DNA from: a bacterium
GTDB lineage: Bacteria; RBG-13-66-14
Length of the DNA stretch: 64,000 nt
Direction: 5' to 3'
Assembly: GCA_035528375.1 (NCBI GenBank)
Contig: DATKYS010000051.1
Location: forward strand, 4,503 to 68,502
Shown: piece by piece, positions 1,590-57,210 of the stretch
How positions within the stretch are numbered: position 1 is the first letter of the stretch
Layout of the letters: every line of letters starts with the position of its first letter
The notes under the pieces: generated by a model
What the model was told of the DNA's origin: nothing
Database searches by the model: none
The model's input: the letters and a program-made list of their open reading frames with translations, nothing else
Program-made: the position numbers and the translations under genes

Positions 1590-1661
1590 ACCACCCCTTT
1601 ACTAAAAATTGACTAACGTGGATGGGAACCGGACGCCGCGGCCCGATCCCCCGTCAACACT

Positions 1662-2024: not shown

Positions 2025-2397
2025 GATTGACTCCTTTCGCTGAATTACCGCACCGGGATTGCTGTGGATTCTCCGCGGGACACCGAACCCGATACGCTTC
2101 CCCCCCGTCGGCGCTCCCTCCGGTCCGGGTAACGCCGGTTTTACGCAGGGAAAGGATACAAAACCGCCCCGTCTGTGGCAAGGGTTTTAGTGCTTCGCCG
2201 GACGGCGGCCCGTCGAATGCAGACTCGATTGGTCGGAACGGCCGCGCCCCCCGGTCACGACCGTGTTTTTTTCTTCCGGGTCTTGACGGCGGGGAAGTTT
2301 CGGCTATTTTACCCGGTGGCGGAGGGTGGGCGGCCCGACCCGCGTAAAAAAGCGGGGGGTTAGGAAAACCAGGGGTTCACGGGCCGCCCTCCCCTAA

Positions 2398-2426
2398 ACC
2401 GCCGGCCGAAAGGTCGGCTTTTTTTA
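2398..2426 (+). terminator. Rho-independent terminator-like hairpin (GCCGA-AAGG-TCGGC) followed by T7
   Basis: gccggccgaaaggtcggcttttttt. There is no plus-strand CDS upstream of it, so it may end a small untranslated transcript. Confidence 0.4.
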
Positions 2427-2439
2427 TCCCCCACCCAGA

Positions 2440-2484
2440 CGTGCTATACTGATAAATGATGATGGAAAGGAAAAGGAGGAAAAA
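2440..2484 (+). promoter_or_regulatory. Putative promoter (-10 TATACT) and strong RBS (AAGGAGG) for the DNRLRE-like gene cluster
   Basis: gtgctatactgataaatgatgatggaaaggaaaaggaggaaaaaATG. This AT-rich stretch sits immediately after the terminator hairpin. Confidence 0.4.
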
Positions 2485-3132
2485 ATGAGGGGAATCGTCA
2501 TCCTCGTCCTGGCAGCCGCGGTCGGAGTCTGGGCCGCGGAGTGGATCACCGTGGAAGCCGACGCCGACAGCTACGTCTACTACTACAAAGATGACACCGA
2601 AGAAGAACCGCAGTACGTGGACGATAACTTCGGTGGAGAAGTAGAACTTTCCGCCTGGTACATCAATTTCTATCGGCGATACCCCTCGCTGATTCAACGA
2701 CGCTCCTTCATCTATTTCGATTTCGAGGGGATGGATCCCCAAAGTAGCGTTCTCGAAGCGATTCTGTCCCTTTACATCACCTACCTGGATTGGGGCGGTA
2801 GGTTCTGGGTGTATCGCTGCCGTGAAGCGTGGGATGAATACGAGGTCACCTGGAACGACCAACCGTGGTTTTCCGAAATTCTCGGTTCATGGGACGATAC
2901 CTTCCCCCTTTACCAGTACAGCGACGTCGCGGAGCTCAATGCCGAAGAGATAGAACTGATAGTGGATAATCCGGACGACAATAACGGTATTATCATTTTG
3001 ACCTCTGAGGACTGGAATTGTGTTGATTTCTCCTCGCGCGAAGGGGGCTTCCCGCCTCGGCTGAAACTCCTGGTCAGCGGGGCCGACGTCGTGGAGGCGA
3101 GCTGGGGGGAGATAAAGGCGGCGTTCGAGTAG
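2485..3132 (+). CDS. Secreted DNRLRE-like domain protein (paralog 1 of 3), C-terminal SWGEIKAAFE tail
   Basis: Signal peptide MRGIVILVLAAAVGVWA. Contains YVDDNFGGE and EVTWNDQPW motifs of the DNRLRE-type domain. Ends ...EASWGEIKAAFE. Confidence 0.6.
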   Translation: MRGIVILVLAAAVGVWAAEWITVEADADSYVYYYKDDTEEEPQYVDDNFGGEVELSAWYINFYRRYPSLIQRRSFIYFDFEGMDPQSSVLEAILSLYITYLDWGGRFWVYRCREAWDEYEVTWNDQPWFSEILGSWDDTFPLYQYSDVAELNAEEIELIVDNPDDNNGIIILTSEDWNCVDFSSREGGFPPRLKLLVSGADVVEASWGEIKAAFE

Positions 3133-28990: not shown

Positions 28991-29563
28991 TCAAATCAGC
29001 CCGGTGAGCCCGATGAAGGCCATCGCCATGATGCCGGCGGAAATCATCGTTATCCCCGGCCCCTTCAGCCCCGCCGGGATGTCCGACTTCTCTATCTTCT
29101 CCCGGATGCCCGCCAGCGCGACGATCGCCAGCATCCACCCCAACCCCGACCCGATCCCGTACCCCACCGTCTCCAGGAATCCGTACCCCCGCAGGACCAT
29201 GAACAGGCTCACCCCGAGGATGGCGCAGTTCACCGTGATCAGCGCCAGGAACACACCGAAGGAGGCGTAGAGGTCGGGGGAGAACCGCTCGATGGCCAGC
29301 TCGAGCACCTGGGTGATGGCCGCGATGACCACGATGAAGATGATGAACTGGAGGTGCTCCACGCCGAAGGGCACCAGCAGGTAATGCTGGATGGCCCAGT
29401 TGGCCGCCGAGGTCAGCGTCATCACCAGCGTCACCGCCATCCCCATGCCGAAGGCGGTTTTCACGTCCCGGCTGACGGCGATGAAGGGGCACATGCCCAG
29501 GAAGTTGGTGAGGGCGATGTTGTTGGTGAAGGTGGCGGCGAAGAGGACGACCAGCGCTTGCAT
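28991..29563 (-). CDS. nqrE: Nqr/Rnf-type membrane subunit NqrE (RnfA homolog)
   Basis: MQALVVLFAATFTNNIALTNFLGMCPFIAVSRDVKTAFGMGMAVTLVMT... is colinear with NqrE/RnfA (LGxCPF motif). Confidence 0.75.
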   Translation of the reverse strand: MQALVVLFAATFTNNIALTNFLGMCPFIAVSRDVKTAFGMGMAVTLVMTLTSAANWAIQHYLLVPFGVEHLQFIIFIVVIAAITQVLELAIERFSPDLYASFGVFLALITVNCAILGVSLFMVLRGYGFLETVGYGIGSGLGWMLAIVALAGIREKIEKSDIPAGLKGPGITMISAGIMAMAFIGLTGLI

Positions 29564-29565
29564 GG

Positions 29566-30621
29566 CTATTCCCCCTTGACGGCGGCCCAGGCTGGCTCGC
29601 CGTCGTAGCTCTCGTTTTCCGTAAGCCGGATTTCCACCGGAAGCTCGGATTCGGCCCCGCTCCCGAACAGGATTATCTCAGAGGAAGGGTCGCCCACGTC
29701 GGCCGTCTGGCCGATGAACCAGTCCCCCCCGGCGGGATCGGGCGCGAGGTTGAATCGGTCCGGCTCCAGGGGCCGGGAGGAAAGAACCGTCTCCGTGGGG
29801 GCGTCCATCCGGGCGCCGTACATCAATTCCCCCTCCCGGTACGGGACGAGGAGAGTGCCGTCGGGGAAGCGGCGGAGCGGGCCGAAAACCTCGTCCCCCG
29901 GGGTGGCGAGATCCGAGTTCGCCAGGGCGTCATGAACGAAAACCAACCCGGCGGTGAAGGGCGACACCAACTCGGACCAGGGTTCGTAGACGCAGACCAC
30001 ACCGAAGCCCGCCACGTGGACCGGCCAGCGGTAGTCTCCCGGCTCCAGGCTCTGCGGCTCCAAGACCCCGCGCTCCAGATCGTAGTAGTAAACTGCGAAA
30101 CAGTTCCGCCGCCCGGACAGGTGCTCCAGCTCCTCGGTGCTCCCCGCGAAGAGCCCCACCGCGCCGTAGTCAATGGCCTCGTAAGAGGAGAAATAAATCC
30201 GCTCGCCGTCGGCGGACCACGAGAGGTCGTTCTCGACGCCGGGGGTGTCGGTCAGCTTGTCCCAGACGCGGTCCCGCCCGGTATTGTTCAGGTCCATCAG
30301 GTAGAGGTCGGGCTGTCCGTACATCTCGCTCACCCAGGCCAGGTAGCGCCCGTCCGGTGAGAGGGCGGGGGACCGGTCCGCGCACGTGTTGTAAGTAATC
30401 CGGTCCGGGAGACCCGTGTCCAGGTCCATCACGTAGATTTCGAGGTCGCCTTCGCAATCGGAGACCCAGGCCACGCGGCCGGCCAGTCCGTTCTCGGCGC
30501 AGAGGGCGGCTATCCCCTCGCCGTTGGAGGCCAGGGCCGGTTCGATTTTATCCTGCACCGCCGACGCGGCGGTCAACATCGCCAAAAGGCAGAGAAACAC
30601 CGGTTTCATCGCACCGTCCAA
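29566..30621 (-). CDS. Secreted TolB-like WD40/PD40 beta-propeller protein
   Basis: Signal peptide, then repeated PD40 motifs (SPALSPDGRYLAWVS, DLSWSADGERIYFSS). Confidence 0.65.
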   Translation of the reverse strand: MDGAMKPVFLCLLAMLTAASAVQDKIEPALASNGEGIAALCAENGLAGRVAWVSDCEGDLEIYVMDLDTGLPDRITYNTCADRSPALSPDGRYLAWVSEMYGQPDLYLMDLNNTGRDRVWDKLTDTPGVENDLSWSADGERIYFSSYEAIDYGAVGLFAGSTEELEHLSGRRNCFAVYYYDLERGVLEPQSLEPGDYRWPVHVAGFGVVCVYEPWSELVSPFTAGLVFVHDALANSDLATPGDEVFGPLRRFPDGTLLVPYREGELMYGARMDAPTETVLSSRPLEPDRFNLAPDPAGGDWFIGQTADVGDPSSEIILFGSGAESELPVEIRLTENESYDGEPAWAAVKGE

Positions 30622-30699
30622 AAGGTATCGCTCGCGGCGAAGGTCATTGAATCAACGAAGCTCGACCTCGCGGAACCGGGGTGCAGCGCCCCGCGCTGC

Positions 30700-31794
30700 C
30701 TAGCCGAATTTGTCGAAGTGTATCCGGCCTTCCGGGACGCCCTTCTCGATGAGCTCGGCGGTGAGGGAGTTGACCACCACCGGCGCCCCGCACAGGTAGT
30801 ACTCGTCGTCCGCGTGGCCCTCGAAAAATTTGCCGAAGAACACGAGGTCCATGCGCCCCCACTCGCCGCCCCAGTCCTTCTCCTCATCGGCCGACAGCAC
30901 CGGGATGTAGTGGAACTTGGGGTTCTTCTCCCACTCTCCGATGTCCGTCTCGCCGTAGAGGTCCCCCTTCACGCGGGCGCCGAAAAAGAGAAAAACCTCC
31001 ACCTCCGGGTCGCTCGCCAAAATGTCCGGGATCAGGCTGCGGAAGGGGGCCAGGCCGACGCCGGTGGCCAGGCAGACGGCGTTGCGCCCCGAATGGGCGT
31101 AGAGGAATTCGCCGTAGGGCCCGGAGAATTTCACCGGGTCGCCCTCCTTCATGTTGTGCAGGTAGTTGCTGGCGACGCCGAGTGCTTCGAGGCGCACGTT
31201 GAAGGAGACGGTCTCCCGCAGGCTGGGCAGGCTGGACATGGAGTAGGCGCGGTAGACCGCCTCACCGGTCTCGGGGTCCGGGGCCTGTATCTGGACGTAC
31301 TGCCCGGCCTTGAACTTTATCTGCGGCGGGTCGCTGAGCCGGAAGGTCAGCTCCTTGATGGCCGGCGTCACCAGCTCGGCCCGCTCCAGCACCGCCTCGT
31401 ACTCGCTTATTTCAAAATACTGCGACGGAATTTCGACCCGCATGTCGTTGCGGACCTTGACCTGGCAACTCAAGCGCACGTTCCTGGCCATCTCCTCGTC
31501 GGTGAGTACGATTTTTTCCGTGGGCAGGTACGGCCCGGCGCCCTCGGTGACCACCAGCTTGCAGTAGGCGCAGGTCCCCTTCCCGCCGCAGGCCGAGGGG
31601 ATGAAGTACTTCTGCTGGAAGAGGGTGTAGAGGAGCGAGTTGCCGCCCCTGACCGAGAGCTCCTTGTCCCCGTTGAGGGTGAGGGTGACCTGGCCGTAGT
31701 CGGCCAAAAATTTGTCGGCCAGGGCGAGGATGAGCCCCAGGGCGAGGGCTATCCCGCCGATGACCGCCGCCGAGGTGAGGATGATGGGGAGCAT
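30700..31794 (-). CDS. nqrF: Na+-translocating NADH:quinone oxidoreductase subunit F-like protein (TM anchor + 2Fe-2S ferredoxin + FAD/NADH-binding FNR domain)
   Basis: N-terminal TM helix, ferredoxin cysteines (SACGGKGTCAYCK...C), and FNR-like RAYSMSS...GVGLAPFRS. Confidence 0.8.
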   Translation of the reverse strand: MLPIILTSAAVIGGIALALGLILALADKFLADYGQVTLTLNGDKELSVRGGNSLLYTLFQQKYFIPSACGGKGTCAYCKLVVTEGAGPYLPTEKIVLTDEEMARNVRLSCQVKVRNDMRVEIPSQYFEISEYEAVLERAELVTPAIKELTFRLSDPPQIKFKAGQYVQIQAPDPETGEAVYRAYSMSSLPSLRETVSFNVRLEALGVASNYLHNMKEGDPVKFSGPYGEFLYAHSGRNAVCLATGVGLAPFRSLIPDILASDPEVEVFLFFGARVKGDLYGETDIGEWEKNPKFHYIPVLSADEEKDWGGEWGRMDLVFFGKFFEGHADDEYYLCGAPVVVNSLTAELIEKGVPEGRIHFDKFG

Positions 31795-31823
31795 ATACCT
31801 CTAATACCGGCTGACGTGAGTTC

Positions 31824-32465
31824 TCAAGGCTCGGAGAAGACGACCGTCGTTCCCTCTGGTGGCTCCTCGCGGAGGGATTCGGCGATTTTTTCGAAGTCCG
31901 GCGCGTCGGCCGCCAGGACGCCCACCACCAGGAAAAGCCTACTCACCCCCGTGGTCTCCACGCCCTCGGTTTCGGCGAAGAACCCGCCGGTCTGAACCAC
32001 CACCGAGTGGAGGGAGCCCGACATCCGCCCGGAAGTCACCGGCGCGCTCCAGCAGTGCCCCTCCACCGCGGCCGTGTCGTACTCGCCGCCGGTGAAGCGG
32101 TGCGTCACCGTGTACGCCACGTCACGGTCCACCCACTCGTCGCCGGAGACGCCGAAATAGACGTGAACCGAGTAGGGCTCCCGCGCCGGATCGTACTCGG
32201 GAACGGGCGGCAACTCGATCTCTATCTCGCTCCCGGCCTCCACCGGCCCCAGGGCGAGGGGGAAGACGTATCCCGCGGCGGGATCGCCGTCCAGGAGGGC
32301 CGCCTCTTCCCACACCACCCCGTCGAGGATGATGAAATCGTCGTAGCGTTCCAGGTACGCCGAGTAGTATTCATTCTCCAGGGAGGTCCAGAAGTCGGGG
32401 CCGCGCACGTCGGCCGCCGAGCCGAGAACCAGAAGCGTCACGAGAATGAGGCCGATTCCCCGCAT
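31824..32465 (-). CDS. Secreted hypothetical protein
   Basis: Signal peptide MRGIGLILVTLLVLGSAADVRG. The start is set at this internal Met. Confidence 0.45.
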   Translation of the reverse strand: MRGIGLILVTLLVLGSAADVRGPDFWTSLENEYYSAYLERYDDFIILDGVVWEEAALLDGDPAAGYVFPLALGPVEAGSEIEIELPPVPEYDPAREPYSVHVYFGVSGDEWVDRDVAYTVTHRFTGGEYDTAAVEGHCWSAPVTSGRMSGSLHSVVVQTGGFFAETEGVETTGVSRLFLVVGVLAADAPDFEKIAESLREEPPEGTTVVFSEP

Positions 32466-32505
32466 GTTCCCTCCTAAGCCGCCCGGGCGCGCAGCCCACT
32501 CCCCC

Positions 32506-33873
32506 TCAACGCCCCGTCCCGGACGGTGCGGATGACGCCGTTTCCGCGGCGCCGCGCGCATCCGTAAACCGCCGCCTGAGAAAGTAAACGCTCATGCCGA
32601 TCAGGTACACAGTGATGGAGGACACCACGAACAGCAAATAAGCCGGCTTGTAAACCCCCAGGCGGTTGGCGAAAAAGGCCGCCGCCTCGACCAGGGGCCA
32701 GGCGAGCAGGACGATGCCGGCGAAGGACCACCTTTCGCGCCGCACGTTATCGGCCGTAACCAGGGCCAGGGGCAAAATCAAGAAAATCAGGTAGGTAGGC
32801 CATGTCACCGCGTTGAGCAGAAATACGGCCAACAGAATCACGATGTACTCGTTGAGCCGCCGGCGCGGTTCGCGCGGTTCGCGCCGGAACGCGACCATCA
32901 GCGGGACCAGCAGAGCCAGGCGCAGCGCCTTATCTATCCAGGAGAAGACCGCCGGCGGGACGTTCAACAGGTTGACGCCGGGTGCCCCGGCCCCCTCCGG
33001 GGCGACCAGGTAGCGCGCCAGCGCGCCTGAGAGCGAGACGTTCTTGTCGTGATAGACCAGGTAGTGAACCCCTTGGCTGCCGAACATCGTCGGTTGGAGA
33101 AAGTTGACGTAATACTCGTTGTATAAGGCCAGCGTTCCATCCCATCCGCGGATCAACACCGGCAGCAAGCCGTTGAACACCAAGAAAACGATCACCGCGC
33201 CCACCGCGATCCTTGCGCGTTTGTGGAGCAGAAAGTACAGGACGAAGAGCGCCGGGGCGAGCTTCACCGCCACCGCCATTCCCAGGAGGATACCGGCGCT
33301 CCAATCCCGCTGTTTCTCCGCCATGACCAAGCCGCCCAGGACGAGGGCCATCAACAGGATGTTCGCCTGCCCGTAGATGAAGAGGTTGCAGAACCAGTAA
33401 TGCGCCGTACACAGAAGCGGCAGGCCGATGACGACGAACAGGCGGCTCCCGACGAGCGCCGGATCGGCGTTGCGGAGCAGGCGGTAAACGAGGGACAGGC
33501 AGAGCAGCGTGAGACCGAGGTTGACGAGCCCAAAGGCGACGTAGAAGGCCGACGGGGGCAGCCATGCGATCAGACCGAGCAGGACGACGAACGCGGGGGG
33601 ATATAAGTATCCCCACTGCCCGGGCTCGTAGACCCGCCGGCCGGCGTAGAAGTCGTTGGCGGCCCTGTAGAAGATGGACAGGTCGTTGTCGCTTCCCAGG
33701 TTCACGCGCACCAGGGAGGCCAGGCTCAGGTAACAGAAGGCGGCGACGGCTACGGCGCCGAGGATTATCCAGAGCCGGTAAATCGGTCTGACGCTCCAGG
33801 ATTCCTTCACCCACGCCCAAATGTGGGCGAAGAGACCCGTCGCAGCCGAATCACCCAGTCGTCGTTCGACCAT
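32506..33873 (-). CDS. Polytopic GT-C-type glycosyltransferase-like membrane protein (DUF2029/GT87-like)
   Basis: About 12 predicted TM helices with a DUF2029-like arrangement (..YPPAF.., LLCTAHYWFCNLF, KLAPALFVLYFLLHKR). Confidence 0.5.
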   Translation of the reverse strand: MVERRLGDSAATGLFAHIWAWVKESWSVRPIYRLWIILGAVAVAAFCYLSLASLVRVNLGSDNDLSIFYRAANDFYAGRRVYEPGQWGYLYPPAFVVLLGLIAWLPPSAFYVAFGLVNLGLTLLCLSLVYRLLRNADPALVGSRLFVVIGLPLLCTAHYWFCNLFIYGQANILLMALVLGGLVMAEKQRDWSAGILLGMAVAVKLAPALFVLYFLLHKRARIAVGAVIVFLVFNGLLPVLIRGWDGTLALYNEYYVNFLQPTMFGSQGVHYLVYHDKNVSLSGALARYLVAPEGAGAPGVNLLNVPPAVFSWIDKALRLALLVPLMVAFRREPREPRRRLNEYIVILLAVFLLNAVTWPTYLIFLILPLALVTADNVRRERWSFAGIVLLAWPLVEAAAFFANRLGVYKPAYLLFVVSSITVYLIGMSVYFLRRRFTDARGAAETASSAPSGTGR

Positions 33874-33880
33874 GCGTCAC

Positions 33881-34516
33881 CTACGCCGTTGATTTGCCGA
33901 GGTCCCTTTTCCTCGCGGCTCCATCCTGGACCGTGCGGATGACCCAGATGTATGTCCCGAGCATGAAGAAGGCGCCGGGGGCCATGACCATTATCACCCA
34001 CGGCTCGAATCCCGGCCCGAGGACCGGAATCCCCGCCAGCGTCCCGAAGCCCAGCAGCTCCCGGAAAATTGAAATTATCAACAGGCTCATGGCGTAGCCC
34101 AGGCTCACCCCGGCGGCGTCCAGAATGCTGGGCAGGGGCTTGTTGTTCGAGGCGAAGGCCTCGGCCCGGCCCATGATGATGCAGTTGGTTATTATCAGCC
34201 CCACGTACGGCCCGATGGCCTTGGAAACCGTTGGTACGAAGGACTTTAACGCGATGTCCACCATGATGACGAAGGCGGCGATGATGAGCGTGTAAACCGC
34301 CATGCGGATGCGCTTGCCGGTGACGTTGCGCACCAGGCTCACCAGAAACGAGCTGCACACGGTGACGAAGACCACGGCTGCGCCCATCGCCACGGTGTTT
34401 ATCACCTGGTTGGTCACGGCCAGGGTGGAGCAGATGCCCAGGATCATGCGGAAGATGGGGTTGTCCTCCCACAGCCCCTTGACGAATATCTTCCAGTTTT
34501 CACCCTTCTTGGCCAC
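33881..34516 (-). CDS. nqrD: Nqr/Rnf-type membrane subunit NqrD (RnfE homolog)
   Basis: ...NPIFRMILGICSTLAVT...GLIITNCIIMGRAEAFA... is colinear with NqrD. Confidence 0.85.
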   Translation of the reverse strand: MAKKGENWKIFVKGLWEDNPIFRMILGICSTLAVTNQVINTVAMGAAVVFVTVCSSFLVSLVRNVTGKRIRMAVYTLIIAAFVIMVDIALKSFVPTVSKAIGPYVGLIITNCIIMGRAEAFASNNKPLPSILDAAGVSLGYAMSLLIISIFRELLGFGTLAGIPVLGPGFEPWVIMVMAPGAFFMLGTYIWVIRTVQDGAARKRDLGKSTA

Positions 34517-34519
34517 GGG

Positions 34520-35923
34520 TCACTCCTCCATCTTCGGCGGGGTGCGGCTCCAGCCCATCAACGGCGCAGCTTCTTCGTAGAACACGTCCCACTGCCCGGT
34601 GTAAACCAGGTACCAGTCTCCTTTACCGGTGGAGAAGCTCAGCACCCGGACGGACGTCCCCGCCTCCAACACCCCCGCCTCGGCGGAACCCGCCTCCGGC
34701 AGACAGAGGAGGGTCAGCGGTTCGAGCAGCTCGCCATACGAGCCGTCCTCACACCGAACTTCGTAGAGAAGTCGGGTCAGGTTTACCGGGCTCCAGAAGT
34801 AACCCAGGGGCCGGGCGTAGTCGTTGCCCGGCGGGCAGTAGAGGGCGTAGAAGCCGGCCTCGGGAATCCAGCGGGCCTCCAGGTCCGTCGAGAACCACGT
34901 GCCGCCGGCGAGATAATCGGGCGGCGGCAGCGGGTGCCGCACCCAGTCCAGGGGACTGAGCCACTCGCGGGCCATCAGGATGTGGTCCGGCTCATCGAGG
35001 TAACTCATCACGGAGTGGTAGCGCATCACCTCCGGGGTCAGCTCCGCCCCGCCGCTGATGTAGAACCAGCGCCCGGTAGGTTCTTCCTCCCATTCGGGGA
35101 TGAACGCCCATTCGGTGTAATCGTAGATGCAACGCAGACCGTCGCCGTCCCGGATAAAGCCCAACACACGCTGTTGGGTTGAGGGAGGCCCTCCGACCGG
35201 CCTGGGGGATGAAGAGCGCGCGTCCAGGGTCAGTTGCAGCTCGGCCGCCCCGTCGCCGTTGAAGTCGCCCGCCTCCAGGCCGTAGAGGCTCCAGTTGTAG
35301 TCCCAACCGAGATATCCGGACTCCTTCTCCCGGGCGATGAACTCCTCCGCGGGCACCTCCTCGACGCTCGTCCCCAGGAAGAAATCGGCCAGGCGCACCT
35401 CGGCGCTGAACGAGCCCTCGACCCGGAGCACCAGTGGCAGGTAATAGACGTAATCCGTATCGTAGTAGAACTGCTCGTACTCCGCGTGGATTTCCCCCGG
35501 CCCGACCCGGACCTGCTCCGGGGCGCCGTCGGAGTCCAGGTCCGCGGCGAGCGTGAGCTCCGGCTCGCCGAAGGCGTGCTCGACGACCAGGTGGCGTACG
35601 CCATCCTCCTCCCAGTAGTAGTTATCCTCCTCGGCGGCGACGTAGCCGCGGAGGTCGCCCGAGCGCACCTCGGCCCAGACGTAATCATCCGATGAGTCGT
35701 AATCCACCGCCCAGGCCAGAATCTCGACCCGGTCGCCCCGGTGGAGCAGGCCGATTTTGTTCCCGTCCACCGACGGTGCGTCGCGGACGTTGAGTGCGTC
35801 CACGTCCACCAGGGCGTACATCGGCTCCGGTTCCGGCGTTGAAATCGAATCGGCCCACCCCGGCGCGTCCAGGGCCCCGGCGGCCGCCGTCAGGCCGAGA
35901 ACGATGACGGTCATCAATTTCAC
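34520..35923 (-). CDS. Secreted SH3b-domain protein of unknown function
   Basis: Signal peptide MKLMTVIVLGLTAAAGALDA. SH3b-like segment ALVDVDALNVRDAPSVDGNKIGLLHRGDRVEIL. Confidence 0.55.
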   Translation of the reverse strand: MKLMTVIVLGLTAAAGALDAPGWADSISTPEPEPMYALVDVDALNVRDAPSVDGNKIGLLHRGDRVEILAWAVDYDSSDDYVWAEVRSGDLRGYVAAEEDNYYWEEDGVRHLVVEHAFGEPELTLAADLDSDGAPEQVRVGPGEIHAEYEQFYYDTDYVYYLPLVLRVEGSFSAEVRLADFFLGTSVEEVPAEEFIAREKESGYLGWDYNWSLYGLEAGDFNGDGAAELQLTLDARSSSPRPVGGPPSTQQRVLGFIRDGDGLRCIYDYTEWAFIPEWEEEPTGRWFYISGGAELTPEVMRYHSVMSYLDEPDHILMAREWLSPLDWVRHPLPPPDYLAGGTWFSTDLEARWIPEAGFYALYCPPGNDYARPLGYFWSPVNLTRLLYEVRCEDGSYGELLEPLTLLCLPEAGSAEAGVLEAGTSVRVLSFSTGKGDWYLVYTGQWDVFYEEAAPLMGWSRTPPKMEE

Positions 35924-36552
35924 GGCGTCCCCCCCTTCGCCGCGGCGAGAAAGGCCGCGATGCCCTCGTTCAGCAGCTTTTCGAGCGATTTCGAGGTCTG
36001 GGTGGCCCCGGTGATGGCCGCCACCTCGTAGGGCTTGTCGGGGGCCTGGTAGGCCACGAGGCCCACGTAGCCCGGCGCCGGGCCCAGCGGCAGGTCGTCG
36101 AACTTTTGCAGAAACTCCGGCTCGGCGATCCGCCCCCCCAGCCCCGGCGTTTCCCCCTGCTCCAGGACCCGCAGGCGGTAAATATTTTTGTAATCGGGCG
36201 TCAGGGCCACCAGGACTTTAATCACGCTCCACAGGCCGCTCCCCGAGGCCTCGAACGCCACGCCCAGCTCCTTCCCCGCGTCGTCGTAGCCCCGGTAGAG
36301 CGTCATCCCGCCGGTCTGGTCCTTCTTGACGTGCTTGGAGTAAATTTCGTCCACCCGGGCGGGCGGGAGCTCCACCCCGGGGTCGGCCAGGCCGAAAACC
36401 TCGATGACGCGGCGGTTGAACAGGCGCGCCTTCTGCTCGTCTATCACCGGCTTGGTGTAGGCGTAGAGGGCGGTCAGGGCCGAGGCCACCAGCACCGAGG
36501 CGGCGACGAGGAAGAGGACCATGAAGGGCCGCGAGTCTTTATTGAAGGGCAT
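35920..36552 (-). CDS. nqrC: Nqr/Rnf FMN-binding subunit NqrC (RnfG homolog)
   Basis: N-terminal TM helix and the FMN-attachment motif AAITGATQTSKSL. Confidence 0.8.
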   Translation of the reverse strand: MPFNKDSRPFMVLFLVAASVLVASALTALYAYTKPVIDEQKARLFNRRVIEVFGLADPGVELPPARVDEIYSKHVKKDQTGGMTLYRGYDDAGKELGVAFEASGSGLWSVIKVLVALTPDYKNIYRLRVLEQGETPGLGGRIAEPEFLQKFDDLPLGPAPGYVGLVAYQAPDKPYEVAAITGATQTSKSLEKLLNEGIAAFLAAAKGGTP

Positions 36553-36955
36553 GTTGTTTTATCACTACGATGTTGTACGAGTAGAACTGATAGTCAGGAC
36601 CAGAATACAGATTCCCGGATGATGTCCGCCTCTGTTTTCTACCTTTCTCTTGATGCTGCTTAAGCACATCCTTGTATTGCTTATAGAGGCTATCCGAAAG
36701 ACCAATCAACTTTATGTCTGTAAATGACAGCAGTTCAAGCGTATCTAACTCCTCTCTGACATCGTATATCTCCCCGTAGGTTTTATTTATCCCTTTTTTG
36801 TCCGCCCAACTGGAGACGATATAGAACTCCCAACGCTCGTACAGACCGTAATAGGACCAGAAGGCGGCCTCGACGGGAATGCTGTGCTTGAGTAATGCCT
36901 TGACAATTATCGAGCCTTCCTCCCGATACTCCTTTACCAGAATGTTCTCAACCAT
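36539..36955 (-). CDS. Hypothetical protein, AT-rich island gene (putative partner of the HEPN protein)
   Basis: 138-aa ORF in a low-GC stretch with no recognisable motifs. It overlaps the HEPN gene by 22 nt and the nqrC start by 14 nt. Confidence 0.45.
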   Translation of the reverse strand: MVENILVKEYREEGSIIVKALLKHSIPVEAAFWSYYGLYERWEFYIVSSWADKKGINKTYGEIYDVREELDTLELLSFTDIKLIGLSDSLYKQYKDVLKQHQEKGRKQRRTSSGNLYSGPDYQFYSYNIVVIKQHALQ

Positions 36956-37347
36956 GATAGAACTCCATCGTGAGGATGTGTCACTGCCTCGAAAAGGTCT
37001 TCAGCTTCGTTTTTACTTTTCGTTGGCTCATACCTCGAATCAGGTTTCCATTTTTTTACTGTAGCCAAATATATCGCTGTCTGGTTATTCGCTGGTCCCT
37101 CTCCCAAAGCTGCTTTATCGAATAATTTATCGAAATTATGGGTCCAACTTGCATCCACACGTTCTTTCTCTGGGAATTCGTGTCGCCGGGTTCGTTTAGC
37201 AATTACAGCCTTCAGGGCACATTCAACGGCATACCCTATCAAGTAATAGGCACCGACGTATCTTCTAGCTTCTAACAAAATCTGAGCATCTCTTACGCGA
37301 TCAAGTGCCATTTGTTTTAAATCACTACTCATTAGTAGTGTACCCAT
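36934..37347 (-). CDS. HEPN-domain protein (putative RNase toxin/abortive-infection component)
   Basis: ...ARRYVGAYYLIGYAVECALKAVIAKR... is the HEPN helix. The Rx4-6H motif is present as R-VDASWT-H-NF. It is AT-rich and overlaps the nqrB stop. Confidence 0.6.
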   Translation of the reverse strand: MGTLLMSSDLKQMALDRVRDAQILLEARRYVGAYYLIGYAVECALKAVIAKRTRRHEFPEKERVDASWTHNFDKLFDKAALGEGPANNQTAIYLATVKKWKPDSRYEPTKSKNEAEDLFEAVTHPHDGVLSWLRTFW

Positions 37348-37348
37348 A

Positions 37349-38362
37349 TCAAACTCCCCTCTTTCTCTTTTGTCGTTCCTTAATAAGCGAGTCCACCAGC
37401 GGGGTGAAGGTGTTGGCGAAGAGGATGGCGAAGAAGACGCCCCCGGAGAAGCTCGACGCCGCTCGGATGATTACGACCAGAACGCCGATGAGCGCGCCCA
37501 TGAGCCAGCGGCCGCCGTTCGTGGCCGGGGCGCTCACCGGGTCGGTGGCGAAGAAGAGCGCCCCGAAGAGGAGCCCCCCGCCGGCCAGGGTGAACGGAAC
37601 GTCCGGGACGAAACCGGGCCAGAGGAAATGAAGCACGAGGGCGGCCAGCGACGCGGCGCCCAGGACCGCCAGCGGCGTGCGCCAGTTGACGATTTTCCGC
37701 GCGAGGAGGTAAATCCCCAAGAGGACGAGGAGAACCGCCGCCGTCTCACCCATCGCCCCGCCGGTGTCCCCCCAGAGCATCGGCCCCAGCGGCCCCTGGA
37801 CGCCGGAGCCCTTGAAGGCCGCCAGGGGGGTGGCGGTGGTCACCGCGTCGGCCGCGGTCAGGTCGGGGGCCCAGCGGGCGAACCCCCCGATCCCGCCCCA
37901 GAACGGCTTCCACCAGTAGCCGGCGAAGTACGTCGGGAAGCTGATGGTCACGAAGGCCCGCCCGACCAGCGCCGGGTTGAAAACATTGCGCCCGAAGCCC
38001 CCGAAGACCTCCTTCCCGAAGAGCTGCCCCACGGCCACCCCGATGACCACCAGCCACCAGGGGACGTGCGCCGGGAGGGTCAGGCCGAAAAGAAGCGCCG
38101 TAATCCAGAAGCTGGGGTCCATGGGCCGACGGCGGACGATGGAGAACGCCGCGGCGGTGACCCAGCCCACGGCGTAGGCCAGGGCCAAAAGGAAGGCGCA
38201 GCGCCAGCCGAAGAGATAAACCGAGGTGAGCGCGAGGGGGAGGAAGGCCCAGGAGAACTTGGCGTGGAGCGGCAGGGGCTTGGTCCGGCCCCGGAAGAAG
38301 GGCAGGGCGTGGAGGCTTCCGCGCGCATGGTCCGCGAGAGAGGGCTTCGTAGCGTCCGCCAT
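37349..38362 (-). CDS. nqrB: Nqr/Rnf subunit NqrB (RnfD homolog)
   Basis: FGGFGRNVFNPALVGRAFV motif, a polytopic layout, and a TxAT FMN-site-like segment (DAVTTATPL). Confidence 0.85.
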   Translation of the reverse strand: MADATKPSLADHARGSLHALPFFRGRTKPLPLHAKFSWAFLPLALTSVYLFGWRCAFLLALAYAVGWVTAAAFSIVRRRPMDPSFWITALLFGLTLPAHVPWWLVVIGVAVGQLFGKEVFGGFGRNVFNPALVGRAFVTISFPTYFAGYWWKPFWGGIGGFARWAPDLTAADAVTTATPLAAFKGSGVQGPLGPMLWGDTGGAMGETAAVLLVLLGIYLLARKIVNWRTPLAVLGAASLAALVLHFLWPGFVPDVPFTLAGGGLLFGALFFATDPVSAPATNGGRWLMGALIGVLVVIIRAASSFSGGVFFAILFANTFTPLVDSLIKERQKRKRGV

Positions 38363-44052: not shown

Positions 44053-44133
44053 GTTTTTTTCTTGAAATTCTTGTGAATGTGGTATAATATTTACCACAGA
44101 CACTTGAACAGACAACATAGTAATGGAGGAGCT

Positions 44134-44499
44134 ATGTTCGGTGACTTCGTAAAGGCGCAAAGATTGGCGTTGGATTTGAGCCTACGCCAATTTTGCCAGA
44201 AGCTGGAACTGGATCCCAGCAACTGGAGCAAGGTCGAGCGCGGGATTCTTCCGCCGCCCAAGGATGAGGTATTTCTGGAGCGGTTGGCAAATTTACTGCA
44301 AATCGAAATTGGCTCACCGAAGTGGCAAGAGCTCTCCGACCTGGCGCATGTTGACCGGGGAGAGATCCCAGGGTATGTGATGCAGGATGAGGAGCTAGTT
44401 AAATTGCTGCCCGTCTTTTTCAGGACCATTGACAGCATCAAACCCACTAGACAAGAGATAATCCAACTGCTGGAGAGCATTAAGGAGGCGCATAAATGA
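44134..44499 (+). CDS. XRE-family helix-turn-helix transcriptional regulator (AT-rich island)
   Basis: MFGDFVKAQRLALDLSLRQFCQKLELDPSNWSKVERG is a Cro/C1-type HTH. Perfect RBS taatGGAGGAgctATG. Confidence 0.7.
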   Translation: MFGDFVKAQRLALDLSLRQFCQKLELDPSNWSKVERGILPPPKDEVFLERLANLLQIEIGSPKWQELSDLAHVDRGEIPGYVMQDEELVKLLPVFFRTIDSIKPTRQEIIQLLESIKEAHK

Positions 44500-45110
44500 G
44501 CTTTCAATTCATGTGTCCCTTCATCAGAAAGGAAGAGCTTTGGGGGAGGGCGGAAGATATTCGGACCACTTACCTAGTGGACTATAAATTACCTATTGAT
44601 AGCGAGCTGATATGCGAAAAGGCAGGCTTGGATGTAGTACCAACAGCTATGCCGAATGTATTCGATTGTTGCATCATTGTAAGTAGAAATGAGTTATGTG
44701 TTAGTCTGAATAGATATTTAGATGACCGTAACGAAAATCGTCTTCGTTTCACTTTTGCGCACGAATTGGGGCACTTCATCTTACACCGGAGCATTCTTGA
44801 AGAGTTAAGTCTGCAAACGATAGATGATTATCTGGAATTCTTGGATGCAGAGCAAGATGAAGCGTATTTACGTTTTGAGTTTCAAGCCAATGAATTTGCA
44901 GGGCGTCTGTTAGTGCCTAGAGACCTGCTTCAAGAGAGATTCGAAAAGCTAATAAGCTCGATTCCGTCTGACCAACGGGCATTTGTTGCAGATAATCTTG
45001 ACTACCTAAAAACCGTGGCGAGCGAAAAGATTTGTGTCGAGTTTGGTGTTTCCCCAAGAGTCATAGCAATAAGGCTCGAACGCGAAGGGTTGTGGCCTCC
45101 CAGGTTGTAG
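44496..45110 (+). CDS. ImmA/IrrE-family zinc metallopeptidase (DUF955, HEXXH)
   Basis: FAHELGHFILH motif. It overlaps the XRE gene by ATGA. Confidence 0.8.
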   Translation: MSFQFMCPFIRKEELWGRAEDIRTTYLVDYKLPIDSELICEKAGLDVVPTAMPNVFDCCIIVSRNELCVSLNRYLDDRNENRLRFTFAHELGHFILHRSILEELSLQTIDDYLEFLDAEQDEAYLRFEFQANEFAGRLLVPRDLLQERFEKLISSIPSDQRAFVADNLDYLKTVASEKICVEFGVSPRVIAIRLEREGLWPPRL

Positions 45111-56036: not shown

Positions 56037-56387
56037 TTAACTTTCATCTATCTCAATCAAGTTAACTGCTTCCTGTTTTAGTCTGGAGCTTATTATTTGA
56101 TTCATTAAATTGTAATCGTTTTTATCCATTTTTTTAACTTTAAGTCTATTTTTTACCTCACATAAAGGTAACGACATCACCAATAAGCCAAATGCTTCAT
56201 CAAGAAAAGAAACTGAAGCGATAATTAACCCTTCAAAGTCCAAAATAATAACTTCACCCTTAGGCCATCGGCCTATAATAGCTTCTCTAACTGCTTTCCC
56301 TGCATCACGCGTCGCAACCCACTGACCAGCAGTTATTTTCTTAATTGAAAAGATCATCCGAAATCTCCTCGAAAAGTGTTTGTTCAT
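56037..56387 (-). CDS. STAS-like (DUF4325-type) small protein, AT-rich island
   Basis: ...GEVIILDFEGLIIASVSFLDEAFGLL... is a STAS/anti-sigma-antagonist-like core. Low GC. Confidence 0.45.
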   Translation of the reverse strand: MNKHFSRRFRMIFSIKKITAGQWVATRDAGKAVREAIIGRWPKGEVIILDFEGLIIASVSFLDEAFGLLVMSLPLCEVKNRLKVKKMDKNDYNLMNQIISSRLKQEAVNLIEIDES

Positions 56388-57210
56388 CTGTATAGACTAG
56401 AGGGATAATTATATAAATAGTAACGCCTTTTACATAAGCAGTTAATTTTTTCACGATTCTACGTGTTTTCTTTTTTTGTTTTTCATATGTAACCATACCC
56501 AAACCAGACAAATAACTTACATTTCCATTAACGTTTAATATACCTACCTTAATATGTTGCAGTCCCATTCCCCCAACAGCCTGTTTTCTCGTTGTAACTT
56601 GTGTTTCTACTGCTGTTTTTATTGCTTCAATATCATTAGATAAATCTTTTTTTACTGTTAACAATGAATTTAAAAACCCTATACCATAGTCTGAAATTGA
56701 AATATGAATTTGTTTTTTCTTAGAGTAAATTTGACCACATACAACACACCCAAACGGTGATTCACTATGGTCTTTTACATTCGTTGTTAATTCATTCATA
56801 CATAATTGAGTTATAAATAATATATTATCATGCAAATAAGGAACTTGGTCCTTAATTATCTCTAAATATTCTAACACTTTCTGCTCATAGTGTTTACTAA
56901 TAGGAGTAAGTTCGAATGTAGTTCTATTCAACTTCCTTGTTGTAGCTTGACCATAAAATCCACTTGATTTTAAATATTCTCTAGTTCCTTGTGACCTTGG
57001 TTCAATTATATACAATCTTTTAAAATTCCTGAAATATTGTTTTATTGAATGATATAATAGAGATATTGCAAATGGTTTAATACTTAGTACATTACTAAAA
57101 TCCAGAGTTACTTCATCTTTGGTTTCTGATAATTCATTACATCTTTTTATCATTGCATCCACAAAATGAATACTTAAATGTGAATGAAACTTTATTGTTT
57201 TCATAATCAA
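56341..57210 (-). CDS. GHKL-superfamily ATPase (RsbW/SpoIIAB-like histidine-kinase-like ATPase), AT-rich island
   Basis: N-box LCMNELTTNVKDHS, G1 box ISDYGIGF and G2 GGMGL. Low GC. It overlaps the downstream STAS-like gene. Confidence 0.55.
   Translation of the reverse strand: MIMKTIKFHSHLSIHFVDAMIKRCNELSETKDEVTLDFSNVLSIKPFAISLLYHSIKQYFRNFKRLYIIEPRSQGTREYLKSSGFYGQATTRKLNRTTFELTPISKHYEQKVLEYLEIIKDQVPYLHDNILFITQLCMNELTTNVKDHSESPFGCVVCGQIYSKKKQIHISISDYGIGFLNSLLTVKKDLSNDIEAIKTAVETQVTTRKQAVGGMGLQHIKVGILNVNGNVSYLSGLGMVTYEKQKKKTRRIVKKLTAYVKGVTIYIIIPLVYTDEQTLFEEISDDLFN

What the first reader, a model, noticed from the sequence alone, without database searches (positions are those of the whole stretch)
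36539..37347. AT-rich two-gene HEPN cassette inserted inside the nqr operon between nqrB and nqrC
The 36934-37347 ORF has the HEPN helix (ARRYVGAYYLIGYAVECALKAVIAK) and an Rx6H motif (RVDASWTHNF), as in HEPN RNase toxins and abortive-infection effectors. It overlaps by 22 nt a 138-aa ORF (36539-36955) with no recognisable motifs. That ORF is not a minimal nucleotidyltransferase, because no GSx9-13DxD motif is present. Both genes are conspicuously AT-rich in a genome that is otherwise over 65% GC. They are wedged between two respiratory-complex genes with overlapping stops and starts, so they would be co-transcribed with nqr. A HEPN protein with a non-MNT partner is a candidate for an uncharacterised toxin-antitoxin or defense pair.
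Basis: partly seen in the sequence, partly recalled or inferred. Interest (0 to 1): 0.7.

Follow-up and report, generated by a model that had tools for sequence, protein, structure and literature searches.

The report
HEPN toxin-like pair inside nqr operon
Two small AT-rich genes wedged into a respiratory-enzyme operon of an uncultured Coatesbacteria bacterium are a copy of a widespread, unstudied two-gene module (a putative HEPN RNase plus a tightly coupled partner protein) that also sits in E. coli prophages, a Klebsiella phage and plasmids, so it is most likely a toxin-antitoxin or phage-defence pair.

Summary
Two minus-strand ORFs (36934-37347 and 36539-36955) have 43-44% GC against 67-69% in the flanks. 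They fill the nqrB/rnfD-nqrC/rnfG junction exactly: a 1-nt gap, a 22-nt overlap and a 14-nt overlap.

ORF1 is a HEPN protein by Pfam and by predicted fold. The invariant residues are H70 and R105-Y106, the AF0298/AbiV-type "alternative histidine" arrangement.

ORF2 belongs to an uncharacterised family of about 130 aa (402 cluster representatives; phrog_5760; no Pfam or PADLOC model). It has no invariant polar residue. Its resemblance to the minimal nucleotidyltransferase fold is weak.

HEPN followed by this partner, with the same 22-nt overlap, recurs in 190 of 5,426 E. coli genomes (in lambdoid prophages in the two inspected), in a Klebsiella phage and on Acinetobacter and Deinococcus plasmids. 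I read it as a toxin-antitoxin or abortive-infection module. That function is inferred, not shown.

In Coatesbacteria the insert is old, not recent. It is present in two clades, the partner has diverged about as much as the host genes, and four close relatives have an empty site. The HEPN segment has been swapped between alleles, and the AT-richness shows no sign of drifting toward host composition.

Verdict: a new variant of a known kind, of moderate interest.

The parts
37349..38362 (-). nqrB/rnfD-type membrane subunit, the upstream host gene. Its last ~50 nt (about 37349-37400) already belong to the variable, AT-shifted block.
   Evidence: Pfam NQR2_RnfD_RnfE E 6.9e-82. NCBIfam rnfD 228.9 bits, above the cutoff of 207. 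In occupied genomes the tail reads ..DSLIKERQKRKRGV*; in empty-site relatives it reads ..DSLIRARRKKSKEAEGAAGEA*. Sliding identity to L001 drops from 49/50 to 32/50 at 37400-37351.
36934..37347 (-). HEPN-domain protein (137 aa), the putative RNase toxin or effector. It belongs to the HEPN-T/AF0298/AbiV-like 'alternative histidine' type. Invariant residues: E42, K46, H70, R105, Y106.
   Evidence: Pfam HEPN E 5.4e-9. PADLOC PDC-M28A E 1.8e-11. phrog_5737 E 3.5e-28. Alignment A5 gives the invariant residues. AF2 model plus Foldseek match HEPN structures. dN/dS is 0.11-0.14 where measurable.
37000..37400 (-). Hypervariable allelic block: the rnfD tail plus HEPN codons ~1-115. It has been exchanged between relatives by recombination.
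   Evidence: Nucleotide identity to L001 is 42-74% here against ~90% on both sides. At identical amino acids the same codon is used in 41% of HEPN sites, against 89% for the partner and 87% for rnfG. L066, whose host genes are nearest L001, carries the window-type HEPN.
36934..36955 (-). 22-nt out-of-frame overlap, ATGGTTGAGAACATTCTGGTAA. It encodes the HEPN C-terminus ..WLRTFW* and the partner N-terminus MVENILV, and implies translational coupling.
   Evidence: The same 22-nt overlap, with the pattern A-TGG-N12-nTG-GTA-A/G, occurs in 11 of 16 modules examined. These include an Acinetobacter plasmid, a Deinococcus plasmid and a Klebsiella phage, plus E. coli prophage L069.
36539..36955 (-). 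Partner protein (138 aa) of an uncharacterised alpha/beta family. It is the putative cognate antitoxin or regulator of the HEPN protein.
36539..36552 (-). 14-nt overlap of the partner's 3' end with the nqrC/rnfG start (ATGcccttcaaTAA). The nqrC ATG has no Shine-Dalgarno-like run upstream in occupied genomes.
   Evidence: Sequence. Junction comparison: empty sites have GGGGAGG 5-6 nt before the nqrC ATG, while occupied sites have ..gtgataaaacaac|ATG.
35920..36552 (-). nqrC/rnfG-type FMN-binding subunit, the downstream host gene.
   Evidence: Pfam FMN_bind E 4e-13. NCBIfam NqrC and RnfG models match, all below cutoff. Its N-terminus MPFNKDSRPFM is the same in empty-site relatives.

Best explanation
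The two ORFs are one self-contained, horizontally spread two-gene module.

**What the parts are**
- The first gene encodes a small HEPN protein of the AF0298/AbiV-like type. Its putative active site uses H70 together with R105-Y106 rather than a canonical Rx4-6H motif. By analogy with other HEPN proteins it is an RNase toxin or effector.
- The second gene is translationally coupled to the first through a conserved 22-nt out-of-frame overlap. It encodes a ~130-aa alpha/beta protein with no conserved polar (catalytic) residue. It most likely binds and restrains the HEPN protein stoichiometrically, as a protein antitoxin or regulator, and does not modify it enzymatically as MNT antitoxins do.
- Elsewhere the module rides on prophages and plasmids, where such pairs act in plasmid or prophage maintenance, abortive infection, or both.

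**What happened in Coatesbacteria**
- The module became embedded between nqrB and nqrC. It has no promoter-like or terminator-like site of its own, so it is probably read as part of the nqr transcript.
- It is chained into the operon's translation: rnfD stop, 1 nt, HEPN start; then the 22-nt overlap; then a 14-nt overlap with nqrC.
- It has stayed there since before two Coatesbacteria clades split. It survives as a presence/absence polymorphism, and its HEPN segment is repeatedly replaced by divergent alleles through recombination in the conserved flanks.

**Shown:** gene identities, conservation, purifying selection, distribution, synteny, allele replacement and the junction anatomy.
**Inferred:** RNase activity, toxicity, neutralisation by the partner, defence function, co-transcription and dependence of nqrC translation on the cassette.
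For: **HEPN identity**
- Pfam E 5.4e-9.
- Foldseek matches to TT1696, ST0689, AF0298 and TM0613, probability 0.99-1.0.
- Invariant E42, K46, H70, R105 and Y106 across 19 homologues from several phyla. This matches the 'alternative conserved H N-terminal to the motif' described for AF0298-like HEPN-T proteins and AbiV (PMC3710099). AbiV is an experimentally shown RNase (bioRxiv 10.1101/2024.05.05.592566).

**Both genes encode proteins under purifying selection**
- dN/dS is 0.11-0.14 for HEPN and 0.14-0.38 for the partner.

**Strict pairing**
- All 16 modules listed, plus E. coli prophage L069, have HEPN immediately upstream of a partner-family gene.
- They come from Coatesbacteria types A and B, a second uncultured lineage (upstream of gatB), A. 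johnsonii plasmid pAJ4131 (next to BrnTA), Deinococcus and Rhizobium plasmids and Klebsiella phage Kp4864-1.
- The module DNA matches 190 of 5,426 complete E. coli genomes. In the two genomes inspected it lies in the lambdoid prophage accessory slot between the replication genes (P, with ren in one of them) and ybcN-ninE-rusA.
- 11 of the 16 modules share the exact 22-nt overlap, as does L069.

**The partner is unlikely to be an enzyme**
- Across 56 diverse members only W33 and Y127 are invariant, and L6, G14, L21, A31 and W42 nearly so.

**Embedding in the operon**
- No sigma-70-like promoter and no terminator-like site falls within the cassette. No Rfam hit within the cassette and no flanking repeats. 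Junction anatomy.

**Age and dynamics**
- The partner is 55-56% identical between clades, against 56% for RnfG and 66% for RnfD.
- Window versus L001: partner dS 0.205, against 0.264 for RnfD and 0.209 for RnfG.
- Empty sites occur in L010, L011, L012 and L021, interleaved with occupied genomes in the host tree.
- HEPN allele replacement is shown.
Against: - No experiment exists for any member of either family. No paper cites the E. coli accessions. PHROGs lists both families as 'unknown function'.
- The canonical Rx4-6H motif is absent, so RNase activity rests on analogy with AbiV and AF0298-type proteins.
- NCBIfam AbiV scores only E 0.017, below its cutoff. No solved structure is related at sequence level.
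- The gene order (toxin first) and the absence of any DNA-binding domain in the partner are atypical for classical type II systems.
- The HEPN part varies much more than the partner. This is the reverse of the usual faster-evolving antitoxin, and is hard to reconcile with a highly specific binding interface.
- Long vertical residence inside a housekeeping operon could also mean domestication for a host function.
- PADLOC recognises only the HEPN half, as the candidate system component PDC-M28A.
Confidence: 0.62

Rival explanations
1. Degenerate type VII (HepT/MntA-like) system. The partner is a descendant of a minimal nucleotidyltransferase antitoxin that has lost catalysis (or kept a cryptic one), and it still docks on the HEPN dimer the way MntA does.
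For: - The non-significant Foldseek list includes chains from HEPN-MNT complex entries at ranks 2 and 11.
- HEPN-T proteins, the fold neighbours of this HEPN, classically pair with MNTs (PMC3710099).
Against: - Foldseek finds nothing with E below 0.19.
- No nucleotidyltransferase Pfam family appears even at E<=10 in 56 members.
- There is no GS...DxD motif and no invariant acidic residue.
- The model has a tight beta-hairpin (strands 30-36 and 41-47) where, from my own knowledge of the fold, nucleotidyltransferases carry the GS-helix.
Confidence: 0.2
2. Domesticated accessory of the nqr operon. The pair no longer acts as a selfish or defence module. Instead it serves the host, for example as an RNA-binding or processing factor that tunes the nqr polycistronic mRNA or the stoichiometry of NqrC.
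For: - The pair sits at the same junction in two Coatesbacteria clades, with partner divergence about equal to host-gene divergence.
- Both genes are under purifying selection.
- There is no promoter-like or terminator-like site of its own.
- The nqrC start lacks a Shine-Dalgarno-like run in occupied genomes, so NqrC synthesis may depend on the cassette.
- A second lineage keeps the module at a fixed position upstream of gatB.
Against: - Four close relatives function without it and have an intact rnfD-rnfG junction.
- Nqr/Rnf loci of other phyla (~40% RnfD identity) never carry it.
- The same pair occurs in prophages and on plasmids with no nqr genes nearby.
- HEPN alleles are swapped and as diverged as between clades, which looks like conflict-driven diversity rather than housekeeping.
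- The composition is unameliorated.
Confidence: 0.1
3. Recent horizontal insertion of a foreign cassette (implied by the first reader). The AT-richness reflects a very recent arrival from a low-GC donor.
For: - GC is 0.43-0.44 against 0.67-0.69 in the flanks, with GC3 of 0.35-0.56 against ~0.9.
- Close relatives have empty sites.
- The HEPN segment was indeed imported or exchanged.
Against: - The partner gene co-diverges with the host genes. Its dS is 0.205, against 0.21-0.26 for the flanks (window-L001), and the order of divergence follows the host tree.
- The cassette is present, at the same GC (0.42-0.47), in the deep clade L004, L013 and L014.
- Polarised substitutions show no drift toward GC: 20 W>S against 34 S>W.
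- No integrase and no flanking repeats were found.
Confidence: 0.08

Closest known systems
HepT/MntA (HEPN-MNT) type VII toxin-antitoxin systems
   Same: - Both are small HEPN proteins paired with one small adjacent co-directional gene.
- Both are widespread on mobile elements.
- The HEPN fold neighbours here (TT1696, ST0689, AF0298, TM0613) are MNT-associated HEPN-T proteins.
- The partner model has a weak resemblance to the MNT fold.
   Different: - The partner has no GS/DxD motif, no nucleotidyltransferase Pfam hit and no invariant polar residue, so AMPylation is implausible.
- The gene order is HEPN first; in MNT-HEPN dyads the MNT is almost always 5' (PMC3710099).
- The HEPN protein is not DUF86-type and lacks the canonical Rx4-6H motif.
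- The two genes share a conserved 22-nt overlap.
AbiV (Lactococcus abortive-infection HEPN RNase; type III toxin-antitoxin with RNA antitoxin abiV2)
   Same: - Both have the non-canonical HEPN arrangement: a conserved histidine N-terminal to the arginine of the degenerate motif (PMC3710099).
- There is a weak NCBIfam AbiV hit (E 0.017).
- AbiV structures appear among the low-ranked Foldseek hits.
   Different: - AbiV is ~200 aa.
- Its antitoxin is an upstream RNA (bioRxiv 10.1101/2024.05.05.592566). Here the second component is a downstream conserved protein under purifying selection.
- The NCBIfam score is below the family cutoff.
HepS (solo HEPN abortive-infection protein of Salmonella prophage Gifsy-1)
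   Same: It is a prophage-borne small HEPN protein in the accessory slot after the replication genes of a lambdoid prophage (PMC13043305). The E. coli copies of this module occupy the same kind of slot.
   Different: - HepS works alone and has a canonical R100-x4-H105 motif.
- It is activated by a phage tail-tip protein.
- The present HEPN always has a coupled partner and lacks the canonical motif.
PADLOC candidate system PDC-M28 (component A)
   Same: The HEPN protein matches the PDC-M28A model at E 1.8e-11. The plasmid and phage copies match at 4e-7 to 7e-9.
   Different: No partner-family member matches any PADLOC v2.0.0 model. PDC-M28 is only a candidate system, and no paper in the searched library mentions it.
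PHROG families phrog_5737 and phrog_5760
   Same: The HEPN protein matches phrog_5737 (E 3.5e-28). The partner matches phrog_5760 (E 0.0046 for the window copy; 1e-48 to 1e-53 for phage and plasmid copies).
   Different: Both PHROGs are annotated 'unknown function'. They are catalogue entries, not characterised systems.

Membership tests
HEPN superfamily (Pfam PF05168, HEPN-T group) | Significant match to the family profile | tested here: met
   PF05168 E 5.4e-9, 36.7 bits against a gathering score of 22, covering residues 8-122.
HEPN superfamily (Pfam PF05168, HEPN-T group) | All-alpha HEPN fold | tested here: met
   The AF2 model (pLDDT 87.5) is all-helical. Foldseek matches 1ufb at TM 0.68/0.73 (probability 1.0), and 1wol, 2hsb and 1o3u at probability 0.99-1.0. 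E-values are weak, 0.017-0.7.
Catalytic HEPN RNases | Canonical Rx4-6H motif conserved across homologues | tested here: not met
No conserved H or D lies 4-6 residues after the invariant R105.
Catalytic HEPN RNases | Alternative active site (conserved H N-terminal to the motif arginine, as in AF0298 and AbiV) | tested here: inconclusive
   H70, R105, Y106, E42 and K46 are invariant in 19 sequences. This fits the description in PMC3710099. Spatial proximity could not be measured and activity was not tested.
HepT/MntA type VII toxin-antitoxin | Partner is a minimal nucleotidyltransferase with a GSx(9-13)DxD catalytic motif | tested here: not met
   The motif is absent. No nucleotidyltransferase Pfam family appears at E<=10 in 56 members.
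HepT/MntA type VII toxin-antitoxin | Partner has the pol-beta nucleotidyltransferase fold | tested here: inconclusive
   [not shown]
HepT/MntA type VII toxin-antitoxin | Antitoxin gene upstream of the HEPN gene | tested here: not met
   HEPN is upstream in all 16 modules and in E. coli L069. The criterion is taken from PMC3710099.
Protein-protein (type II-like) toxin-antitoxin module | Two small, adjacent, co-directional, translationally linked genes that always occur together | tested here: met
   The pairing holds in 16 modules and in E. coli L069, and the module DNA matches 190 E. coli genomes. The 22-nt overlap is conserved in 11 of 16.
Protein-protein (type II-like) toxin-antitoxin module | Carried on mobile elements and patchily distributed | tested here: met
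   Found on plasmids, in a phage and in lambdoid prophages. Close Coatesbacteria relatives show presence/absence.
Protein-protein (type II-like) toxin-antitoxin module | Toxin inhibits growth and the partner neutralises it by binding | not testable with these tools
   This needs expression and binding experiments, or at least a multimer structure prediction.
Protein-protein (type II-like) toxin-antitoxin module | Antitoxin carries a DNA-binding domain for autoregulation | tested here: not met
   No HTH, RHH or AbrB domain was found by Pfam. In Coatesbacteria no promoter-like site precedes the cassette.
AbiV (NCBIfam TIGR04498) | Score above the family cutoff | tested here: not met
   15.5 bits against a cutoff of 27, E 0.017.
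PADLOC PDC-M28 candidate defence system | All components of the system present | tested here: inconclusive
   Component A matches at E 1.8e-11. No other PADLOC model matches the partner or its relatives. The composition of PDC-M28 could not be looked up.
Autonomous mobile element (insertion sequence, integron cassette, integrative element) | Recombinase gene, terminal repeats or an attachment site | tested here: not met
   The two ORFs fill the whole insert. No flanking direct or inverted repeats were found. The left boundary differs between alleles, as expected for homologous recombination.

The most novel reading that the evidence does not exclude
The HEPN-partner pair is a previously unrecognised, widespread class of toxin-antitoxin or abortive-infection system. 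A non-enzymatic, MNT-derived (or entirely new) alpha/beta protein restrains an AbiV-like 'alternative histidine' HEPN RNase by binding alone. In Coatesbacteria the module has made itself hard to lose by wiring into the translational chain of a respiratory operon: NqrC synthesis would depend on translation of the cassette. Its AT-rich codons and exchangeable HEPN alleles would be kept by selection, for example through phage pressure and throttled expression.
Probability: 0.15. Interest if true: 0.7.

Novelty: new variant of a known kind. Interest (0 to 1): 0.5.

Why it matters
- **An unstudied module.** The pair is conserved across phyla: 402 partner-family clusters at 50% identity, and 3.5% of complete E. 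coli genomes. No publication was found in the searched library, and there is no Pfam or PADLOC model for its second component.
- **A new way to control a HEPN RNase.** If it is a toxin-antitoxin or defence system, it adds a non-enzymatic protein partner and a toxin-first, dual-coded overlap to the known control modes: AMPylation by MNT, an RNA antitoxin in AbiV, and allosteric activation in HepS.
- **It is testable.** E. coli prophage copies exist, so it can be tested directly.
- **The Coatesbacteria copy is an evolutionary case study.** A selfish or defence cassette has been kept for a long time inside a respiratory operon. It has no signals of its own, stays compositionally foreign, exists as a presence/absence polymorphism, and has a toxin half that is swapped between alleles.

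Tried and rejected
- **Sequence annotation of the partner.** Pfam, NCBIfam and PADLOC gave nothing, even at E<=10. A PDB sequence search with the family profile returned only chance hits such as pyruvate oxidase at E 0.017.
- **Fold searches for the partner.** Foldseek against the PDB gave nothing significant. The afdb50 library was unavailable.
- **Solved relatives of the HEPN protein.** A profile search of PDB sequences gave no hit at E<=1.
- **Metagenome scan with RnfD.** It added only one informative close relative, L021, which has an empty site. The ~40%-identity RnfD loci of other phyla have no cassette.
- **Signs of an autonomous mobile element or RNA component.** There are no flanking repeats and no Rfam match within the cassette. 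The only hit was a sub-threshold L31-leader match outside it, on the opposite strand. No promoter-like site was found, and none of the four terminator-like sites lies inside the cassette on its coding strand.
- **Literature.** Nothing was found for PDC-M28 or for the E. coli accessions. NetFlax does not cover this pair.
R63 is not conserved.
- **Rejected: a recent insertion.** The partner co-diverges with the host genes and the deep clade is also occupied.
- **Rejected: an RNA-only second component, as in AbiV.** The partner is a conserved protein family with dN/dS of 0.14-0.38.
- **Organism of the second lineage.** A cluster look-up gave no names.
Full report
**1. The observation**

Their GC is 0.425 and 0.444 (GC3 0.35 and 0.56). 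The surrounding genes have GC 0.60-0.70 and GC3 0.83-0.92.

The junctions are as tight as described:
- The rnfD/nqrB stop codon is followed by a single base and then the first ATG.
- The two ORFs overlap by 22 nt.
- The second ORF ends at a TAA that lies inside codons 4-5 of nqrC/rnfG, a 14-nt overlap.

No sigma-70-like promoter was found, and none of the four terminator-like sites lies inside the cassette on its coding strand. No Rfam family matches within the cassette, and no flanking repeats were found.

The host cluster on the minus strand reads: nqrB/rnfD, [HEPN, partner], nqrC/rnfG, an SH3-domain gene, nqrD/rnfE, a GT87 glycosyltransferase, a 245-aa ORF, an nqrF-like gene, a PD40 gene and nqrE/rnfA. 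A CHASE2 histidine kinase lies upstream. Record titles of close relatives name the lineage as Candidatus Coatesbacteria.

**2. The first gene**

It is a HEPN protein:
- Pfam PF05168, E 5.4e-9, above the gathering score.
- PADLOC PDC-M28A, E 1.8e-11.
- phrog_5737, E 3.5e-28.
- The AF2 model (pLDDT 87.5) is all-helical. Its best structural neighbours are the HEPN proteins TT1696, ST0689, AF0298 and TM0613 (TM up to 0.68/0.73).

In an alignment of 19 homologues from several lineages, position 63 is K, E, L or another residue. H70, R105, Y106, E42 and K46 are invariant.

This is the arrangement that Anantharaman et al. describe for AF0298-like HEPN-T proteins and AbiV. In those proteins the histidine of Rx4-6H is missing and a second conserved histidine lies N-terminal to the motif arginine (PMC3710099). 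AbiV has since been shown to be an RNase (bioRxiv 10.1101/2024.05.05.592566).

Catalytic competence is therefore plausible but only inferred. No solved structure is related at sequence level, and the NCBIfam AbiV score is below its cutoff.

**3. The second gene**

Close homologues are very few: 7 in 5.8 billion clusters, all at the same nqrB|nqrC junction.

HEPN homologues at 43-47% identity in other contexts are each followed by a 126-163-aa ORF of unknown function. These align with the window protein. A profile built from both groups retrieved 26 proteins. In an exhaustive HMMER search the profile then retrieved 402 cluster representatives at E<=1e-3.

The family consensus is ..LV...I..G..L...L...G..V.AAFW.Y..E...W.L.IASP.VD..GP..Y.....DI.V..P......R....IEDAYIY. 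Only W33 and Y127 are invariant, and L6, G14, L21, A31 and W42 nearly so. No polar residue is conserved, which argues against an enzyme.

No Pfam, PADLOC or PDB-sequence relative exists. PHROGs holds the family as phrog_5760, 'unknown function'.

The AF2 model (pLDDT 80) is an alpha/beta sandwich:
- It also lists BolA, RimP and OsmC-like folds at similar Z.
- Foldseek finds nothing significant.

Descent from an MNT-like fold remains open.

**4. The pair is a module**

In all 16 modules compared, the HEPN gene is immediately upstream of a partner-family gene. E. coli prophages add further examples. The modules come from:
- Coatesbacteria type A (window, L066, L001, L005, L004, L014) and type B (L016).
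- A metagenome contig (L068).
- A second uncultured lineage, where the pair sits upstream of gatB (L007, L009, L015, L017).
- A. johnsonii plasmid pAJ4131, next to a BrnT/BrnA pair (L062).
- A Deinococcus plasmid, where the partner domain is fused to DUF3800 (L063).
- A Rhizobium plasmid (L064).
- Klebsiella phage Kp4864-1 (L065).

These are documented.

Eleven of the 16 share exactly the same 22-nt overlap. Its pattern is A-TGG-N12-nTG-GTA-A/G, so the HEPN C-terminus W-x4-W-stop and the partner N-terminus M-x4-L-V are dual-coded.

DNA of the Klebsiella phage module finds 190 of 5,426 complete E. coli genomes. In the two genomes inspected, the pair lies in a lambdoid prophage, between the replication genes (P, with ren in one of them) and ybcN-ninE-rusA-Q. 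In L069 it is annotated 'HEPN domain-containing protein' plus 'hypothetical protein', with the same 22-nt overlap. In an O157:H7 strain the HEPN gene is truncated and the partner is intact.

That prophage slot is where accessory and defence genes such as HepS sit (PMC13043305). No paper in the searched library mentions the E. coli accessions or PDC-M28.

**5. History in Coatesbacteria**

*States of the site*
- Occupied type A: window, L066, L001/L002/L003 and L005/L006.
- Occupied type B, with its own HEPN and a partner 38% identical to the window's: L016.
- Empty, with the rnfD stop abutting or overlapping the nqrC ATG: L010, L011, L012 and L021.
- A deeper clade with RnfD 66-68% identical (L004, L013, L014) carries HEPN, partner A and a second, type-B partner. 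The type-B copy is intact in L014 and truncated in L004 and L013.
- Nqr/Rnf loci of other phyla (~40% RnfD identity) lack the pair.

*The partner tracks the host*
- Window versus L001: partner dS 0.205, against 0.264 for rnfD and 0.209 for rnfG.
- Between clades the partner is 55-56% identical, against 56% for RnfG.
- In host-gene trees the empty genomes are interleaved with occupied ones.
- All empty sites share the same longer rnfD tail..KEA(A)EGA(A/V)GE(A/T)*. This suggests that an 'empty' haplotype and 'occupied' haplotypes are exchanged by homologous recombination.

*The HEPN segment is exchanged*
- The block from about 37400 to 37000 (rnfD tail plus HEPN codons 1-115) is only 42-74% identical to L001. 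Both sides are ~90% identical.
- At identical amino acids the same codon is used in 41% of HEPN sites. That is as low as between clades (42%), and compares with 89% for the partner and 87% for rnfG.
- L066, whose host genes are nearest L001, carries the window-type HEPN.
- The left edge of the AT-rich block differs between alleles.

*The AT-richness persists*
- GC is 0.40-0.48 in every Coatesbacteria copy, in both clades.
- Polarised changes in the conserved part of the cassette are 20 W>S against 34 S>W. In rnfG they are 11 against 25.
- The counts are small, but they give no sign of drift toward host composition.

**6. Mechanism**

*Shown*
- The gene pair is a conserved protein-coding module under purifying selection (dN/dS 0.11-0.38).
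- It is carried by prophages and plasmids.
- In this genome it is embedded without any detected promoter-like or terminator-like site of its own.

*Inferred*
- The HEPN protein is an RNase toxin or effector that uses H70 and R105.
- The partner, made in fixed proportion through translational coupling, binds and restrains it.
- Loss of the partner or a phage cue would release the RNase.
- In Coatesbacteria the pair is transcribed with nqr.
- Occupied genomes have a Shine-Dalgarno-like run before the HEPN ATG but none before the nqrC ATG. Empty genomes have GGGGAGG before nqrC. NqrC synthesis may therefore depend on ribosomes finishing the partner ORF. That would penalise imprecise loss of the cassette.

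*Why the HEPN half varies while the partner is conserved is unexplained.* Recombination at the nearly invariant dual-coded overlap, combined with conflict-driven diversity of the effector, is one reading.

**7. Comparison and verdict**

The module works like a HEPN toxin-antitoxin or abortive-infection pair, but it does not qualify as any named family:
- **Not HepT/MntA:** no nucleotidyltransferase motif, reversed gene order and not a DUF86-type HEPN.
- **Not AbiV:** below the family cutoff, and the second component is a protein rather than an RNA.
- **Not HepS:** HepS works alone and has the canonical motif.
- **Only half-covered by the PADLOC candidate PDC-M28.**

I class it as a new variant of a known kind. 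Interest is moderate. New small defence and toxin-antitoxin pairs are common. This one, however, is broadly distributed, unstudied and testable in E. coli. Its operon-embedded, long-resident, compositionally foreign and allele-swapping Coatesbacteria copy is an unusual evolutionary situation.

Noticed in passing
window 44077-45110 (+): A second low-GC islet (GC ~0.46) holds an overlapping pair. One ORF is a 140-aa HTH_31 (XRE-type) protein (E 1.9e-8). The other is a 204-aa Peptidase_M78/ImmA-IrrE protein with an HELGH motif (E 3.5e-12). This looks like a typical mobile regulator-protease or toxin-antitoxin-like pair.
   Followed up: partly
window 56037-57210 (-): This is the lowest-GC islet of the window (GC ~0.32). 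It holds a 289-aa protein with a weak HATPase_c match (E 0.0017). That ORF overlaps a 116-aa DUF4325 STAS-like protein (E 4e-10). It is another foreign two-gene cassette of unknown role.
   Followed up: partly
window 28991-38362 (-): The nqr-like cluster is interrupted at nearly every junction by non-nqr genes of native GC. These are an SH3-domain protein (34520-35923), a GT87 glycosyltransferase (32506-33873), a 245-aa ORF (31824-32561) and a PD40 beta-propeller protein (29566-30621). The gene order is B-C-D-F-E. No nqrA was seen, and a CHASE2 histidine kinase lies upstream.
   Followed up: partly
window 34520-35923 (-); L012, L013, L014: The SH3-domain gene between nqrC and nqrD is itself variably present. 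It is absent in L012, L013 and L014, where rnfG is followed within ~35 nt by rnfE. It also evolves fast, at 35-68% identity against 90-96% for its neighbours.
   Followed up: partly
L011 8801-9700: The empty-site relative RBG_13_66_14 has a different very low-GC stretch (0.30-0.33) just after nqrD. It contains a 275-aa ORF, at the position where the window has the GT87 gene.
   Followed up: no
L016 (whole contig, 1991 nt): The only type-B cassette with its own HEPN sits on a contig whose two ends repeat the histidine-kinase C-terminus. On it, rnfD is reduced to its last ~50 codons. This is probably an assembly chimera or a collapsed repeat, so the type-B evidence there should be treated with caution.
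   Followed up: no
[not shown]
   Followed up: no
L063 2501-3883 (Deinococcus plasmid); P0047, P0065, P0078: Some partner-family members carry C-terminal extensions. In the Deinococcus plasmid the partner domain is fused to a DUF3800 domain (460 aa in total). Other members are 200-240 aa with unannotated tails.
   Followed up: partly
L007, L009, L015, L017: In a second uncultured high-GC lineage the HEPN-partner pair occupies a fixed position immediately upstream of gatB-secG. The 22-nt overlap has been resolved there into a 1-7 nt gap. The partner carries a 13-residue insert between its first two strands.
   Followed up: partly
window 1001-3000: A broader stretch has reduced GC (0.53-0.56, against ~0.65 elsewhere). 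It was not examined.
   Followed up: no
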